From an uncultured Clostridia bacterium (GTDB lineage Bacteria; Bacillota; Clostridia; TANB77; CAG-508), in assembly GCA_934149075.1 (NCBI GenBank), contig CAKPDR010000009.1:1565-65564 (forward strand): a stretch of DNA of 64,000 bases, in the 5' to 3' direction. Both the position numbers and the translations under genes were made by a program. Position 1 is the stretch's first letter, and the number at the start of each line of letters is the position of its first letter. The notes under the pieces were generated by a model, which made no database searches, had not been told where the DNA came from, and saw only the letters and a program-made list of their open reading frames with translations. This document shows positions 2,661 through 46,048 of this stretch, piece after piece.

Positions 2661-2834
2661 TAATTATTAAAATTGCTCAAGGGACGGAGCAATTTTATTT
2701 TGTTTTATACAATTTATAAAAAATTTTTAAATCCCCCAAAAAACACTTGTAACTTTTTACATTTTGCTATAATATATTAAAGTAAATTGAAATATACTAA
2801 ATTCATAGAAAGGAGTATTATCTTTAAATATATT

Positions 2835-2985
2835 CAAGCGCCAGAACACTTTGATCTTTGTGTTGACGAGGTCTAGAGTTATCGATTTTTCGGCGGATGC
2901 TCTAGTGGATTGCTTAATCCATAGTATTAAACAAAAATTAGCAGTAATGCTATAACAGACATTAATACATAAGCAGTATATTTCA
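2835..2985 (+). ncRNA. glmS: glmS ribozyme (GlcN6P-responsive self-cleaving riboswitch)
   Basis: Contains the conserved core AAGCGCCAGAAC...GACGAGG...TCGGCGGATGC directly upstream of the glmS start, in the canonical order. Boundaries are approximate. Confidence 0.85.
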
Positions 2986-12795: not shown

Positions 12796-12870
12796 TGGTT
12801 GGGCTGGCTAGATTCGAACTAGCGCATGCCAGAGTCAAAGTCTGGTGCCTTACCGCTTGGCTACAGCCCA
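12796..12870 (-). tRNA. tRNA-Gln (UUG)
   Basis: The reverse complement, TGGGCTGTAGCCAAGCGGTAAGGCACCAGACTTTGACTCTGG...TTCGAATCTAGCCAGCCCAACCA, folds as a cloverleaf with anticodon loop CTTTGAC. CCA is encoded. Confidence 0.9.
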
Positions 12871-12885
12871 ATATATAATATTTTA

Positions 12886-12963
12886 TGGGGTGGAAGATGG
12901 GACTCGAACCCACGGTCTCCAGTGCCACAAACTGGCGCGTTAACCAACTACGCTACATCCACC
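12886..12963 (-). tRNA. tRNA-His (GUG)
   Basis: The reverse complement, GGTGGATGTAGCGTAGTTGGTTAACGCGCCAGTTTGTGGCACTGG...GGTTCGAGTCCCATCTTCCACCCCA, has the extra 5' G typical of tRNA-His and anticodon GTG. Confidence 0.85.
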
Positions 12964-41266: not shown

Positions 41267-41664
41267 TTATTTAAATTCATCTAAAAGTTTAAATTCATAT
41301 CCTTGTTCTTTTGCCTCTTTTATAATGCTATCTAAAACTTCTGAATTTGTTTTTGAATTAGGATGTAATAACATTATTTCTCCACAGTGTAAATTATTAA
41401 TAATCATTTTTCTACTTTCTTCTAGAGATGGCTGCTTTTTTTCATCCCAATCAAAATATGCAAAACTCCACATTACTGTTTTATATCCTAATTCTGATGT
41501 TTTCTTTAAAGTTCTTTCATTAAATTCACCTTTTGGTGGACGCATAAATTTCATCTCATAATTAAATTTTCCCATTACTGCTTGATGAAGTTTCATTATT
41601 TCTTTTTCTATTTCCTCATTTGATATACTTGGCATACTTTTATGGTTTACAGTATGATTTCCTA
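41267..41664 (-). CDS. pdaA: delta-lactam-biosynthetic de-N-acetylase PdaA, 3' segment of an interrupted gene
   Basis: In-frame reading upstream of the ORF-track Met gives GNHTVNHKSMPSISNEEI...RPPKGEFNERTL...MLLHPNS...QGYEFKLLDEF, collinear with the C-terminal half of PdaA. Confidence 0.85.
41652..41664. repeat. left copy of the 13-bp direct repeat GTATGATTTCCTA (putative att core)
   Basis: Identical 13-mer at 46036-46048. It encodes part of GNHT in the pdaA frame. Confidence 0.8.
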
Positions 41665-41713: not shown

Positions 41714-43338
41714 TTATTTATAATCTACGATTGGATTCTCGAAAGTTAATTTAATTTTGATATTTTTTTCTTTATCAAATTCTATTTTTTCAATTAATTG
41801 TTCTAAAATAACTTTATTAGTATTTTCTAATTTTAAAAAATCGTCTGCTATCTTTTTTATTTCCCTATAATTTGCTTTTATACCTTGTTCATCGTTTTGA
41901 TTTAAACTTTCTTGTATTATTTTTATCTCCTTTAAAATTTTATCCCTTTGCTTTTGTTTCTTTTCGTAAATTATTTTAAAATCCTCCACTTGTATGATTT
42001 TACTTATTTTGTCTTGATAAATTTCTTCAATATTTTTTTCCACCTCTTTAAGCTGTTCCTTCAAATTCTTTAAGTTCTCTTTTAGCAAATTTTCTTTGGA
42101 TTTTGCCTGTTCTCTTGCATATTCATAACTTTGTTTTATTTCTTCTTCAGATAAATTTATCTTCTTTAATTCGTTCTTTACCTGTTTCTTTACTACTTCC
42201 TCTATCAAGCTCGCTGATATTTGCTTGCAGTCACAAAGTCCACTATAATTATTTCTTTTTGAGCAAATAAAATATGTACCTCTCCAAACACTTCCATTTT
42301 TCCTCTTTTCCTCTCTACATCTTAAAGTTGCCTTATTACCACACTCTCCACAATGCACTAATCCTTTTAGCACATGTTCATATTTCCTCTCACGCACTTT
42401 TGTATAATTATTTAGTTTTTCCTGTGCCTTATTCCAGATTTCAGTATCTATAATAGATTCATGCATATTTTCTATTACAATATGTTCTTCTTTTTTTGTA
42501 CACCTTGACTTTGCAATTTTATGGCTTATTTTTTGAAATTTTCTGCCTACTACACTTCCGAAGATATACTTCATTTCTTAAAATTTTTCCAATTTGTGCC
42601 CTAAGCCACACATATTTTCCGACTTGGATTTACACTTCTTTTCTTCATGTATGTTGGAATTTTCAAATAAATTGCTGGTGGTAAAATTTCTCTTCTATTT
42701 AGTTCATCTGCAATTTTTATTGTTGACATCCCTTTGTTAACATACATATCAAATATCTCTTTTACAATTTGTGAACTGTATTTATCTGGCACCAAATGAT
42801 TTTTAATTTCCGTATCTTTTTTATATCCATAAGGTGGAATCCCTGCTTGATATTCACCTTTTTCTATTTTCCTTTGTTTAACACTTTTTATTTTGTTAGA
42901 AATATCCTGTGCATAGTAATCATTAAAACTTAGCTTAAAGGTTAAAAACTGTAATCCATCTGATTTTAATGTATCTACATTATCTCCAATTGCAATATAC
43001 CTAATATTATTAGTTGGTAAATACCTTTCTAAATAATATCCTGTATCTATATGGTCCCTTCCAAATCTTGATAAATCTTTTGTTATTATACAGTCTATTT
43101 TTCCATCTTCTATATCTTTTAACATTTTTTGAAAACCTGGTCTATTAAAATTTGTTCCAGTAAAACCGTCATCAACATATTCTCCTGTATCTACTAGCTC
43201 TTCGTGACCCAAAATGTAATTATCAATAATATCTCTTTGATTTTCAACGCTTTCACTCTCTCTATCATCTCCGTCATCACGAGAAAGTCTTATATACTTT
43301 GCTGTTCTAATTCTTCTATATTCATTTACTTTACTCAT
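41714..43338 (-). pseudogene. large serine recombinase with two +1 frameshifts
   Basis: ORF 42601-43338 is the catalytic domain (YIRLSRDDGDD..., TKDLSRFGRD). ORF 41714-42574 holds the recombinase domain, a zinc ribbon (CGECG...C..C) and a coiled coil. A third frame between them encodes WLRAQIGKILRNEVYL. The shifts are at 42615-42618 and 42558-42563. Confidence 0.85.
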
Positions 43339-43551: not shown

Positions 43552-43733
43552 AACTCACCTCTATCAATTGTTTTTCTTTATATAATCTTATGAATTTAAA
43601 AAAAATTTATTACTTTTGTATTTTTGCGTCAAGAAAAGTAACTTTGTCACCTTTTCTTCGCCCGTTTTGAGTTTTCGACTATATGGAGAAACTCTCAAAT
43701 GGCCTAGTGATTGTAGCTTTTTATTTAATATAA

Positions 43734-45113
43734 ATCGAGTAGGAGAAATACCATTAGTTGATATTTCGTCCTCTCACACCACCACAGCATGCCGTTCGGC
43801 ACTGGGCGGTTCAATAGAATTAATACTTTAACAGTATACACTAGAAAGACTTATATAACCTTGTCTTTCTAGTATTTTATTATTTAACACTTTATTGATT
43901 ATTTGATTATCAGAAAGTCTCCAATATCCTTTCCTTGTATTTGCACAAGTCCATGCCGTTTCATCTTTTATTCCTAGCCTTTTAAGGTTTTCATATCTTG
44001 CTTTTATTTTCTTCCATTGCTTCCAATAGCACATTCTTATTCTTCTACGTATCCATTTATCTAGATTTTGTGCTATTTTTCCCATATTGGCTATTTTAAA
44101 ATAATTTACCCACCCTACAATAACTTGTTTTAATTTATTATATCTACTTTCCATACTCATTGCGTTACTTCTTGATGTTATAATTCTTATTTTATCTTTA
44201 AATTTAGCTATTGATTTTGGGTGTACCCTTATTTCAATTTTATCTTTTTTTGGTAAAATGAAAAACCTAGATATTTTATTCGCCATGGCCTATCTACTTT
44301 GCTTTTATCTTTATTGACTTTCAATCTTAATTTTGTTTCGATAAATTTTGTAATATTTTCCATTACTCTTTCTGCTGATTTCTTTGACTTTGTAAATATC
44401 ACACAGTCGTCCGCATAGCGTACGAACTGTAAGCCACGTTTTTCTAGTTTTTTGTCTAACTCATTGAGCATTATGTTACTCAATATTGGTGAGATGTTTC
44501 CGTCCTTGTGGTGTTCCTTTTTCTGTCTTTTCAAGTAATTCATTAGTTACTGTTTTAGTATCGATTTCTTTAAATGGAGACACATCAAGAATACTAGGAA
44601 CTTTTGCAATACTTTCTGTTTCCAACTTATTATCTTGCAAATAGTCTTCTATATGAAGTTGTCTACCATTATTATATTCCTGATTACCTTTCATAAAAAA
44701 AAATCCTCCTATCGTTCAGTCCTTCGCAAATTGTATATATCCAATTTGTTATTATGACCTCTGCTGACTTCTGATACTTCATTCTAATATCACTATTAGC
44801 ATTTTCATATCTATTACAAGATATTTCCAAAATATCAGACCTCCCCAGATAAGAACAACAACCTTCCTCTCATATATCTGCCACATTTACTGTATGAGCT
44901 TTGGATAGTTATTCGGGCTTTGCTTTGTTCAGCAAGCTCGCCCAACTCAATTCAGCCTTGTATGTGATTTCTGTTCGTCAGACCGAGATTTTGCTATTGA
45001 CTTCTTTCAGATTCCACCTCACAATGGACACCCTTGTCATTCGCTAACAGTTCGCAACTATCAGGCACTGTATGGAACTTTCACCCACAAGTTGTTGCCC
45101 ATGCTGGGCATAC
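43734..45113 (-). mobile_element. group IIC intron, degenerate (internally deleted reverse transcriptase)
   Basis: The 5' end is GTATGCCCAGCATGGGCA..., followed by ...AAGGGTGTCC...GGAATCTGAAAGAAGTC...TCGGTCTGA...GGGGAGGTCTGA...AGAAGTCAGCAGAGGTCAT. Domain V is GAACCGCCCAGTGCCGAACGGCATGCTGTGGTGG. From memory this closely follows the Oceanobacillus-type IIC consensus. The 3' boundary is approximate. Confidence 0.8.
43828..44694 (-). pseudogene. group II intron reverse transcriptase/maturase remnants (three ORF fragments)
   Basis: ORFs 44476-44694, 44229-44543 and 43828-44286. RT5-7 (TPQG..ISPILSNIMLNELD...FVRYADDCVIF) and the X/maturase domain are present. RT1-4 are largely missing and the frame is broken twice. 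Confidence 0.8.
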
Positions 45114-45117
45114 TGGA

Positions 45118-45147
45118 AATAGAGTTCTCTAAATTAGAGAACTCTAT
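45118..45147 (-). terminator. terminator-like hairpin of the cargo gene; insertion site of the IIC intron
   Basis: 13-bp stem aatagagttctct / agagaactctatt. On the minus strand the stem is followed by TCCA and then the intron 5' end GTATG. Confidence 0.6.
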
Positions 45148-45181
45148 TCGTTCAGTTAAATTATGAGTAACCAGTGGCTAC

Positions 45182-45886
45182 TTAAACTACATACCATCCT
45201 ACGCAATTGCAGTATGCGTCTTCATAAAGGCATGCAAAAAATGTAATTGTTGCAAGTGGACTTTTACAACCCAAATCTTTGCAGCAACCACTAGCAATCC
45301 AAAAATGCTCATTGTTGTCATCATCAGCCAAAATTTTACATGTATTTGCTAAATCGCATTTTCCAGCAATTTTTCTAGAACCAGTTTGCTCAAAGCCTTC
45401 TGTTATTTTATCTTTTGAATCACAGTAGTGTCCTAATTCTTTAGAATCTTTACATACTGCATAAAAGGCTTTTTCCTCAGACCATCCTTCTTTCTTCAAA
45501 CGATAAATAATTGTTGCTAAGAACAGTATATATTGGCTCTTAGTTCCCAACCGCAAACAATTTTTAGCTGCAAGACTATGTTGTCCGTAATAATAAATTC
45601 CAGTTGCTGGTTTGCAACCTGGTATAAACTGAATGAATCCAAATTTACTAATAGATGGATCACAAACTGGAACTCTGAAAGACTTTACTCCAGTTTTAAT
45701 TACATCTTTTAGGCTTCTTAAAAATCTCATTTCTTCATTATTATTAGGCTCATGTTTCAGTAATTCAGAATAGATCTCGCTGGAAGAACTTTCAACAAGA
45801 ATAGTTTCAAATTCTACTACTTTTTCGTTTCCTGGATATCCATGAATTACTGCCTGAATATCGTTACTAGCCGTTGCCTTGCTCAT
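45182..45886 (-). CDS. Cys-rich hypothetical protein (234 aa), the only intact cargo of element 2
   Basis: GGAGG RBS. I recognise no family. The C-terminal half has many Cys (CDLANTC, GCCKDLGC, ACLYEDAYCNC). It looks more G+C-rich than the host genes. Confidence 0.6.
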   Translation of the reverse strand: MSKATASNDIQAVIHGYPGNEKVVEFETILVESSSSEIYSELLKHEPNNNEEMRFLRSLKDVIKTGVKSFRVPVCDPSISKFGFIQFIPGCKPATGIYYYGQHSLAAKNCLRLGTKSQYILFLATIIYRLKKEGWSEEKAFYAVCKDSKELGHYCDSKDKITEGFEQTGSRKIAGKCDLANTCKILADDDNNEHFWIASGCCKDLGCKSPLATITFFACLYEDAYCNCVGWYVV

Positions 45887-46035: not shown

Positions 46036-46048
46036 GTATGATTTCCTA
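46036..46048. repeat. right copy of the 13-bp direct repeat GTATGATTTCCTA
   Basis: Identical to 41652-41664. Confidence 0.8.

What the first reader, a model, noticed from the sequence alone, without database searches (positions are those of the whole stretch)
43734..45147. Degenerate group IIC intron inserted right after the terminator hairpin of the cargo gene inside element 2
The minus strand from 45113 reads GTATGCCCAGCATGGGCA.... It carries, in order, sequence blocks that from memory match the Oceanobacillus-type IIC ribozyme, including domain V GAACCGCCCAGTGCCGAACGGCATGCTGTGGTGG and a domain VI with a bulged A. Four nucleotides upstream of the intron 5' end is a perfect 13-bp stem-loop (45118-45147) that ends the 234-aa gene. 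Insertion just 3' of terminator hairpins is the known targeting habit of IIC introns. The encoded reverse transcriptase is broken into three fragments and lacks most of RT1-4. The whole intron is about 1.38 kb, whereas I recall roughly 1.8-1.9 kb for intact IIC introns. This is a mobile element nested inside a mobile element inside a sporulation gene. The ribozyme part looks largely intact, so splicing in trans-complemented form is conceivable.
Basis: partly seen in the sequence, partly recalled or inferred. Interest (0 to 1): 0.5.

Follow-up and report, generated by a model that had tools for sequence, protein, structure and literature searches.

The report
Decayed group IIC intron behind hairpin
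This is a broken copy of a well-known kind of bacterial "jumping" self-splicing RNA element (a group IIC intron). It sits just after a gene's terminator hairpin, its RNA fold is still intact, and its own enzyme gene is wrecked, so it is an ordinary genomic fossil.

Summary
Window 45113→43734 (minus strand, 1380 nt) is a class C (IIC) group II intron. It begins 3 nt after a 15-bp hairpin (45117-45149) that follows the 234-aa gene.

- **Ribozyme domains I-IV:** Rfam detects them at 150.5 and 62 bits, equal to the scores of intact relatives.
- **Domains V/VI:** these miss Rfam RF00029. So do relatives with intact protein genes and the identical domain V. A family-specific covariance model finds them at 86 bits with every pair standard.
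- **Relatives:** about two dozen full-length relatives (24 measured, most 1903-1915 nt) also sit just after stem-loops. Covariation locates EBS1 (44928-44931).
- **Encoded reverse transcriptase:** its closest solved relatives are IIC enzymes. It is destroyed by a +C frameshift, a 534-nt in-frame deletion between TTGAAA repeats (RT0-RT3 lost) and a −A frameshift.
- **Decay series:** copies at the same site in other strains show intermediate stages.
- **Activity doubts:** IBS1-EBS1 pairing is weakened. Polymorphism is equal in the ribozyme and the dead ORF, and the window holds no helper copy.

Verdict: a correctly identified, recently decayed, non-autonomous IIC intron, and a new member of a known kind. 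One side puzzle remains: diverged copies elsewhere share the same +C frameshift.

The parts
45117..45149 (-). Stem-loop (15 pairs, loop AUU) 32 nt after the stop of the 234-aa gene. It is a terminator-like hairpin and the DNA target motif of the intron.
   Evidence: with its flanks -22.6 kcal/mol, z = -7.6. One search confirms the sequence. The promoter/terminator scan did not call it.
45114..45117 (-). IBS1 (5'-TCCA-3'), the last 4 nt of the 5' exon.
   Evidence: Exon positions -1 and -2 pair with the EBS1 loop in 28 of 28 copies. In the window -1, -2 and -4 pair, and -3 is a C.A mismatch.
43734..45113 (-). Whole group IIC intron, 1380 nt (GTATG...CTCGAT).
44695..45113 (-). 5' ribozyme segment, domains I-III and the start of domain IV (intron nt 1-419).
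   Evidence: RF02001 150.5 bits at 44854-45028 and RF01998 62 bits at 44719-44804. 100 of 102 family consensus pairs are kept.
44928..44931 (-). EBS1 (5'-TGAA-3') in the loop GC-NNNN-CA of a domain I hairpin (intron nt 183-186).
   Evidence: Covariation with the 5' exon in 28 copies. Coordinates.
44887..44887 (-). Candidate EBS3 (A, intron nt 227), which pairs with the first 3'-exon base.
   Evidence: Watson-Crick compatible in 23 of 24 copies. It is G in two of the three copies whose 3' exon starts with C.
44476..44694 (-). IEP fragment 1 (72 aa): the N-terminus, then the deletion junction, then the start of RT4, ending after the +C frameshift.
44534..44535 (-). Junction of the 534-nt in-frame deletion (RT0-RT3 lost), between TTGAAA direct repeats.
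   Evidence: The pre-deletion sequence is preserved in L114, the copy at the same site in another strain. Coordinates.
44502..44502 (-). Inserted C (CAA GGA C GG AAA) that shifts the frame inside RT4.
44229..44543 (-). IEP fragment 2 (RT4-RT7, includes YADD).
   Evidence: Pfam RVT_1 1.6e-17.
44245..44251 (-). A-run that has lost one A (A8 to A7), giving the second frameshift. The A is still present in L024 and L109.
43828..44286 (-). IEP fragment 3 (X/thumb maturase domain, with no endonuclease domain after it).
   Evidence: Pfam GIIM 1e-22.
43778..43810 (-). Domain V: CGC triad with a G.U in the middle, a 2-nt bulge (AU), loop GAAC, and one extra bulged U.
   Evidence: Identical to L010 and L011, which have intact ORFs.
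43736..43776 (-). Domain VI with a bulged A at 43740, 7 nt from the 3' end.
   Evidence: The distal stem is kept by compensatory changes across the family.
43733..43733 (-). IBS3, the first base of the 3' exon (T).

Best explanation
This is a decaying, non-autonomous copy of a bacterial class C (IIC) group II intron retroelement.

Inferred origin: an intron ribonucleoprotein recognised the stem-loop after the 234-aa gene, together with a 4-nt IBS1 and a 1-nt IBS3. It reverse-spliced into the DNA 3 nt past the stem, in the sense orientation, and was copied into DNA.

Shown: the intron's reverse transcriptase/maturase gene then broke in steps. First came a +C frameshift in RT4. Next came a 534-nt in-frame deletion between TTGAAA repeats, which removed RT0-RT3. 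Last came the loss of one A in an A-run.

Shown: the RNA part still has the full family secondary structure (domains I-VI, CGC triad, branch A, EBS1, EBS3).

Inferred: the fold is intact because the decay is recent, and selection is not maintaining it. The copy cannot move or make its own maturase. It lies in an intergenic spacer downstream of a terminator-like hairpin, so its presence or splicing should not matter to the flanking genes. Any residual splicing would need read-through transcription and a maturase from an intact sibling copy elsewhere in the genome.
For: Identity:
- RF02001 scores 150.5 bits and RF01998 62 bits. Intact relatives score 149.5-160.7 and 62.7-68.5 bits.
- The custom domain V/VI model scores 86.2 bits, E = 1.4e-19, with no non-standard pair.
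- 14 of 28 domain V/VI pairs show compensatory changes across 23 copies.

Class:
- An intact relative of the IEP (84% identical to the window fragments) matches the IIC RNP 7uim at 4e-136 and GsI-IIC RT 6ar1 at 3e-134.
- The 466-aa relatives have only RVT_1 and GIIM domains.

Targeting:
- Every full-length relative with upstream sequence sits a few nt (about 2-8) after a stem-loop.
- The EBS1 loop pairs with exon positions -1 and -2 in 28 of 28 copies.

Decay:
- Alignment to L076, L065 and L027 shows the lesions.
- L114 carries the copy at the same site (99.5% identical). It keeps the 534 nt and has its own 151-nt deletion.
- L024 and L109 keep the A that the window lost.

No selection on the ribozyme: among copies at the same site, 5 of 516 ribozyme sites vary and 9 of 864 ORF-remnant sites vary.

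No helper: there is no other intron or IEP in the 64-kb window.

The known habit of IIC introns is described in PMC1702495 and PMC4424553.
Against: - The ribozyme fold is nearly perfect: 100 of 102 and 30 of 30 pairs. Domain V is identical to that of copies with intact ORFs, so residual activity cannot be excluded.
- Metagenome contigs break inside the conserved part of the intron (nt 54-153; most near 107-110 and 149-153). This suggests sibling copies in the same samples that could supply a maturase.
- The insertion event is inferred. No empty site (hairpin without intron) was found. Every copy of the 234-aa gene examined carries at least the first 98 nt of the intron.
- The hairpin is not called a terminator by the simple scan, because its T tail is weak.
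Confidence: 0.85

Rival explanations
1. It is an active non-autonomous intron. The ORF-less RNA is transcribed by read-through and bound by a maturase/RT from an intact sibling copy in the same genome. It then still splices and perhaps still retrohomes, like the few ORF-less bacterial group II introns that live beside related intact introns.
For: - Secondary structure is fully kept, and domain V is identical to that of the intact-ORF copies L010 and L011.
- The start of the ORF region in domain IV lies upstream of the deletion.
- Close intact relatives (up to 91% aa identity) are common in gut Clostridia MAGs.
- Contig breaks inside the intron suggest several copies per sample.
- Bacterial ORF-less introns nearly always co-occur with related intact introns (PMC4424553).
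Against: - IBS1-EBS1 has only 2 contiguous pairs plus one. In B.h.I1, copies with a weakened IBS1 gave no ligated exons (PMC1702495).
- Polymorphism is equal in the ribozyme and the dead ORF.
- All copies of the 1380-nt form are at this one site.
- Other deleted forms (L114, L068) carry different, independent deletions.
- No helper copy is present in the window.
Confidence: 0.12
2. It is an exapted sequence. The intron remnant, or its first ~100 nt with the hairpin, is kept because it serves the carrier element, for example as an insulator or RNA-stability module between the cargo gene and the recombinase gene.
For: The 234-aa gene, the hairpin and the first 98 nt of the intron travel together at 99.5% identity into a different two-recombinase element inserted in an AhpC/Redoxin gene (L019-L023).
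Against: - That co-travel is equally expected from simple linkage and a later truncation.
- There is no conservation excess.
- The rest of the intron is lost in L019 with no visible replacement.
- No known precedent.
Confidence: 0.02
3. It is not a IIC intron: either another group II class or a chance resemblance.
For: - Rfam's domain V/VI model RF00029 gives no hit even at E <= 10.
- The 5' end is GUAUG, where the consensus is GUGYG.
- No formal IEP phylogeny was made.
Against: all point to IIC. RF00029 also misses the intact relatives L010 and L011. GUAUG is shared with the full-length copy L076.
Confidence: 0.01

Closest known systems
Bacterial class C (IIC) group II introns such as B.h.I1 (Bacillus halodurans), O.i.I1 (Oceanobacillus iheyensis), GsI-IIC and the Eubacterium rectale IIC intron (PDB 7uim)
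   Same: - Position a few nt after a terminator-like stem-loop.
- A 4-nt IBS1-EBS1 and a single-base IBS3-EBS3.
- Domain V with a CGC triad, and domain VI with a bulged A.
- An IEP lineage without an endonuclease domain.
- Full-length size near 1.9 kb.
(PMC1702495)
   Different: - This copy is 534 nt shorter and has two frameshifts, so it has no RT or maturase.
- The 5' end is GUAUG.
- Domain V carries one extra bulged U, which is shared with some intact relatives.
- IBS1 has a mismatch at position -3.
ORF-less or degenerate-IEP bacterial group II introns that depend on a sibling's IEP (reviewed in PMC4424553)
   Same: The ribozyme is retained and the IEP is lost or broken. Related intact introns are common in the same group of organisms.
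   Different: Dependence on a helper is not shown here. There is no helper in the window, no sign of selection on the RNA, and the copy is intergenic, so nothing requires it to splice.
Intervening (skin-like) elements with large serine recombinases that split sporulation genes
   Same: The carrier of the intron is such an element. It has 13-nt direct repeats (46036-46048 and 41652-41664), and it splits a pdaA-like gene that reads through cleanly once the element is removed.
   Different: This concerns the carrier. The intron itself is only a passenger inside it. The carrier's recombinase gene is split into two frames in every copy seen.

Membership tests
Group II intron (ribozyme) | Domains I-IV with the conserved fold | tested here: met
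   RF02001 150.5 bits (gathering 32) and RF01998 62 bits (gathering 35). 100 of 102 family consensus pairs are standard.
Group II intron (ribozyme) | Domain V hairpin with a catalytic triad (AGC or CGC), a 2-nt bulge and a terminal tetraloop | tested here: met
   The CGC triad has a G.U in the middle, the bulge is AU and the loop is GAAC. There is one extra bulged U, also present in the intact-ORF copies L010 and L011. Rfam RF00029 itself gives no hit, and it also gives none for L010 or L011.
Group II intron (ribozyme) | Domain VI with a bulged branch-point A 7-8 nt from the 3' end, and an intron that ends in AY | tested here: met
   The bulged A is at 43740, 7 nt from the end, and the intron ends in AT.
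Group II intron (ribozyme) | 5' end GUGYG | tested here: inconclusive
   The window has GUAUG. Position 3 is A only in the window lineage and L076, and it co-varies with C265U (n = 2 lineages).
Class C (IIC) group II intron | IEP belongs to the class C lineage and lacks an endonuclease domain | tested here: met
   The best solved relatives are IIC: 7uim at 4e-136 and 6ar1 at 3e-134, against LtrA at 5e-47. Relatives carry only RVT_1 and GIIM. This rests on similarity ranking, and no phylogeny was made.
Class C (IIC) group II intron | Inserted just downstream of a terminator or other inverted repeat, in the sense orientation | tested here: met
   A 15-pair hairpin ends 3 nt upstream. The same arrangement holds at every full-length relative with upstream sequence. 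The defining habit is described in PMC1702495.
Class C (IIC) group II intron | Short (3-4 bp) IBS1-EBS1 and a single-base IBS3-EBS3 | tested here: met
   For the family, the EBS1 loop co-varies with exon positions -1 to -4, and EBS3 is compatible in 23 of 24 copies. In this copy only positions -1, -2 and -4 pair.
Class C (IIC) group II intron | No EBS2/IBS2 pairing | tested here: inconclusive
   No intron column specifically tracks exon position -5. The exons are T-rich there and positions further upstream lie in the hairpin, so the test has little power.
Autonomous mobile group II intron | Intact RT/maturase ORF in domain IV | tested here: not met
   A 534-nt deletion, a +C and a -A. Only fragments of 72, 104 and 152 aa remain.
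Trans-complemented ORF-less intron | An intact, closely related IEP encoded in the same genome | not testable with these tools
   There is none in the 64-kb window. The source genome could not be identified.

The most novel reading that the evidence does not exclude
The +C that breaks the IEP frame (CAA GGA C GG AAA) may not be a simple lethal mutation. The identical insertion occurs in at least three diverged copies at three different sites: the window lineage, L076 and L096. In L076 it is the only defect in 466 codons. Pairwise dN/dS among these copies (0.18-0.25) is like that of intact copies.

Two readings remain open:
1. GGA-CGG-A is a hungry-codon +1 recoding site. CGG occurs at 0.59 per 1000 codons in the window's long ORFs and GGA at 40 per 1000, and skipping the C restores the native Gly-Asn. 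The site would throttle IEP synthesis.
2. A frameshifted sub-lineage keeps spreading with help supplied in trans.
Probability: 0.1. Interest if true: 0.55.

Novelty: new member of a known kind. Interest (0 to 1): 0.2.

Why it matters
It matters little in itself. It is a textbook example of how IIC introns hide behind terminators and then decay. Its practical use is for annotation: the three small ORFs are pseudogene fragments, and this stretch should be marked as an intron remnant.

Two modest points of wider use:
- Strains carrying the same insertion give a dated, step-by-step series of decay of a bacterial group II intron, in which the ribozyme fold outlasts the ORF.
- Rfam RF00029 misses a natural domain V variant (an extra bulged U) that occurs in apparently intact introns. 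Screens based on domain V will therefore undercount this sub-lineage.

Tried and rejected
- **RF00029 on the window:** no hit at the gathering threshold or at E <= 10. I first read this as possible decay of domain V. I rejected that reading because L010 and L011 (intact ORFs, same domain V) also fail, while L001, L002 and L005 pass at 45-49 bits.
- **Source organism:** exact-sequence look-ups of window proteins returned only unnamed metagenome and MAG records.
- **Empty site:** I looked at contexts of five near-identical 234-aa proteins. All carry the intron or its 98-nt stub.
- **Intact sibling in the same genome:** not possible from 64 kb. The window holds no second copy.
- **JGI metagenome scan for the +C 18-mer:** 34 stretches matched, and none is an intron.
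- **Short-peptide search for frameshifted N-terminal products:** The second found only 6 candidates.
- **Gene-conversion patch around the +C:** no locally raised identity. An earlier version of that script used the wrong column and was discarded.
- **Whether G3A is compensated:** position 265 changes C to U in the same two lineages. With n = 2 related lineages this is not evidence.
- **Terminator scan:** it does not call the hairpin, so 'terminator' remains an inference from position and shape.

Full report
**What is there**

Read on the minus strand, the 234-aa gene (45886→45182) is followed after 32 nt by a stem-loop at 45149→45117. The stem has 15 pairs and the loop is AUU. With its flanks the fold is -22.6 kcal/mol, z = -7.6 against shuffles. 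Three bases later, at 45113, the sequence GTATGCCCAGCATGGGCA begins.

Rfam places two group II intron models here at scores far above their thresholds. RF02001 (D1-D4-3) scores 150.5 bits at 44854-45028. RF01998 (D1-D4-1) scores 62 bits at 44719-44804. These are the only group II hits in the 64-kb window.

The three ORF fragments inside the element carry reverse-transcriptase and maturase signatures. Fragment 44229-44543 matches RVT_1 at 1.6e-17, and fragment 43828-44286 matches GIIM at 1e-22.

**Class**

I joined the three fragments into a single query. It retrieves thousands of 466-aa proteins with only RVT_1 and GIIM domains, the best at 84% identity. The best of these (P0001) matches solved structures as follows:
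- the Eubacterium rectale IIC intron RNP (7uim) at 4e-136;
- GsI-IIC RT (6ar1) at 3e-134;
- the IIA protein LtrA at 5e-47;
- a IIB maturase at 4e-39.

The protein lineage is therefore class C. This rests on similarity ranking, and I made no phylogeny.

**Boundaries and targeting**

I fetched full-length relatives from metagenome contigs, a Clostridium felsineum plasmid and 80 loci from GTDB genomes.
- 24 relatives with both ends were measured. Most are 1903-1915 nt and the closest are 1911-1915. One carries a 256-nt insertion (L034, 2172 nt) and one carries internal deletions (L068, 1344 nt). The window copy is 1380 nt.
- All start with GT(G/A)(T/C)GCCC and end with ...CCTACTCGAT. Similarity stops exactly at those points.
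- In every copy with upstream sequence, a stem-loop ends a few nucleotides (about 2-8) before the intron. This is the defining habit of IIC introns (PMC1702495; PMC4424553).
- The base after the 3' end is T in 21 copies and C in 3. This fixes the window's 3' end at 43734.

**Exon-binding sites**

I compared the last exon bases with every column of an alignment of the first 440 intron nt. Exon positions -1 and -2 are complementary to two adjacent loop positions in 28 of 28 copies, with 3-4 pair types. The loop reads GC-NNNN-CA, and its four variable bases pair with exon positions -1 to -4 in most copies. This is EBS1, at window 44928-44931 (TGAA).

The window's IBS1 is TCCA. Positions -1, -2 and -4 pair, and -3 is a C.A mismatch. 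In B.h.I1, a natural copy with a mispaired stem-loop and only 3 IBS1 pairs gave no ligated exons, and neither did IBS1 mutants (PMC1702495). This weakening therefore counts against efficient splicing.

A candidate EBS3 (A at 44887) is Watson-Crick compatible with the first 3'-exon base in 23 of 24 copies.

**Ribozyme integrity**

- The Rfam scores of the window copy equal those of intact relatives: 149.5-160.7 bits for RF02001 and 62.7-68.5 bits for RF01998.
- On an RNAalifold consensus of 25 copies, the window keeps 100 of 102 pairs in the 5' 400 nt. The exceptions are C50.U58 and A365.C388. Copies with intact ORFs keep 88-100%.
- Domains V and VI fold as expected. Domain V has a CGC triad with a central G.U, a 2-nt bulge and a GAAC loop. 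Domain VI has a bulged A at 43740, 7 nt from the end.
- Across 23 copies, 14 of 28 domain V/VI pairs show changes on both sides that keep the pair.

Rfam RF00029 (domains V/VI) gives no hit in the window even at E <= 10. It hits L001, L002 and L005 at 45-49 bits. It misses L010 and L011, which encode intact 466-aa proteins and have a domain V identical to the window's, including one extra bulged U. A covariance model built from 17 family members that lack this variant, and that exclude the window, finds a single hit in the window. The hit is at 43734-43816(-), 86.2 bits, E = 1.4e-19, with no non-standard pair. Domains V and VI are therefore present and well formed, and the RF00029 miss is a limit of that model.

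**How the protein gene broke**

Alignment with the nearest full-length copies (L076, L065, L027) shows three lesions:
1. An inserted C at 44502 (CAA GGA C GG AAA) inside RT4.
2. A 534-nt in-frame deletion at 44535|44534, which removes RT0-RT3.
3. The loss of one A in an A-run at about 44245-44251.

Other strains carry the same insertion at the same site, after the same 234-aa gene and in the same element, at 99.5% identity. They give the order of events:
- L114 still has the 534 nt, flanked by TTGAAA direct repeats. It has the +C and its own separate 151-nt deletion.
- L024 and L109 have the 534-nt deletion and still keep the A.

The order was therefore +C first, then the deletion, then -A.

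Among these same-site copies, variable sites are as frequent in the ribozyme (5 of 516) as in the dead ORF (9 of 864). Nothing suggests that selection is maintaining the RNA. Other family members have independent lesions: L068 has different deletions (421 + 155 nt) and L034 has a 256-nt insertion.

**Context**

The intron lies in a 4.4-kb element bounded by the 13-nt direct repeat TAGGAAATCATAC, at 46036-46048 and 41652-41664. Removing the element joins ...GHIVGNHT to VNHKS... and yields a 268-aa protein. Its best NCBIfam match is spore_pdaA at 281.5 bits, just under the cut-off of 298. The yabP/yqfC and yqfD homologues lie next to it. 'A mobile element inside a mobile element inside a sporulation gene' is therefore a fair description. 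The element's large serine recombinase is split into two frames, at 42601-43338 and 41714-42574.

**Mechanism and verdict**

The best-supported account is a single retrohoming event behind the hairpin, followed by stepwise loss of the IEP. What remains is a non-autonomous copy whose RNA fold is intact only because the decay is recent.

Trans-complemented splicing is possible in principle. Arguments for it:
- The fold is intact.
- The start of the ORF region in domain IV is retained.
- Relatives are abundant in gut Clostridia MAGs.
- Contigs break inside the conserved core of the intron.

Arguments against it:
- IBS1-EBS1 pairing is weakened.
- The ribozyme shows no sign of selective constraint.
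- The 1380-nt form occurs at one site only.
- The window holds no helper copy.

Because the copy sits after a terminator-like hairpin in a spacer, the host gains or loses nothing either way. This is a new member of a known kind, of low general interest.

**One loose end**

The same +C occurs in L076 (another site, and the only defect in 466 codons) and in L096 (another site, heavily decayed). Several short database proteins also end in ...PQGR(K).

These copies are not close at synonymous sites (dS 0.39-0.67). Their pairwise dN/dS of 0.18-0.25 lies within the range for intact pairs (0.09-0.25). There is no patch of raised identity around the C. CGG is rare in the window's long ORFs (0.59 per 1000 codons) and the overlapping GGA is the commonest glycine codon (40 per 1000).

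A recoding site or a spreading frameshifted lineage cannot be excluded. Neither can parallel mutation or undetected gene conversion. I leave this unexplained. It does not affect the verdict on the window copy, whose ORF is destroyed by the other two lesions in any case.

Noticed in passing
window 44502; L076:2215-2232; L096:2215-2232: An identical +C frameshift (CAAGGA-C-GGAAA) occurs in three diverged intron copies at three different sites. In L076 it is the only defect in the 466-codon ORF. dN/dS among these copies is as low as between intact copies. CGG is a rare codon here and GGA is very common.
   Followed up: partly
window 41652-41664 and 46036-46048: The 13-nt direct repeats TAGGAAATCATAC bound the 4.4-kb element. 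Joining the flanks restores a pdaA-like polysaccharide deacetylase (NCBIfam spore_pdaA 281.5 bits, cut-off 298), next to the yabP/yqfC and yqfD homologues.
   Followed up: yes
window 41714-43338 (-) and 30185-31832 (+): Both large serine recombinase genes in the window are split into two reading frames, between or within the Resolvase and Recombinase domains. The first is split the same way in L012, L024, L109 and L114. This could mean pseudogenes or recoding, and I did not examine it.
   Followed up: no
L019:5792-6930 (also L020-L023): A different element with two recombinases sits in an AhpC/Redoxin gene (crossover near ACCCCT). It contains an attP-like junction of the window's element (right end joined to left end). 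After that come the 234-aa gene, the hairpin, only the first 98 nt of the intron and a 55-nt arm. The module is 99.5% identical to window 46048-45016.
   Followed up: partly
L114:1-8705: In another strain the same pdaA site holds a tandem array. First come a Metallophos gene and an intact 545-aa recombinase. Then follow the attP-like junction, the 234-aa gene, a 1764-nt version of the intron and the split recombinase.
   Followed up: partly
window 45182-45886 (-): The 234-aa cargo protein has no Pfam or NCBIfam match and has a cysteine-rich C-terminus. It is shared at over 90% identity by at least two different recombinase elements.
   Followed up: no
window 45111 and 44849 (intron nt 3 and 265): The unusual A at intron position 3 (GUAUG) co-occurs with C265U only in the window lineage and L076. 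This would turn a possible G-C contact into A-U. It rests on two related lineages only.
   Followed up: partly
L034:1080-3251; L068:1081-2424: Other members of the same intron family carry a 256-nt AT-rich insertion in the ORF (L034, 2172 nt) or independent internal deletions (L068, 1344 nt).
   Followed up: partly
L010, L011, L034 and window 43778-43810: A natural domain V variant with an extra bulged U escapes Rfam RF00029, even in copies with intact ORFs.
   Followed up: yes
window 2826-2978 (+); 12799-12962 (-); 58619-58873 (-): A glmS ribozyme (85.2 bits) and five tRNA genes were found by the whole-window Rfam scan.
   Followed up: no
L001:1372-1465: In the Clostridium felsineum plasmid, a guanidine-I riboswitch (80.6 bits) ends about 30 nt upstream of the intron's 5' end. 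The intron's target hairpin appears to be that riboswitch's terminator.
   Followed up: no
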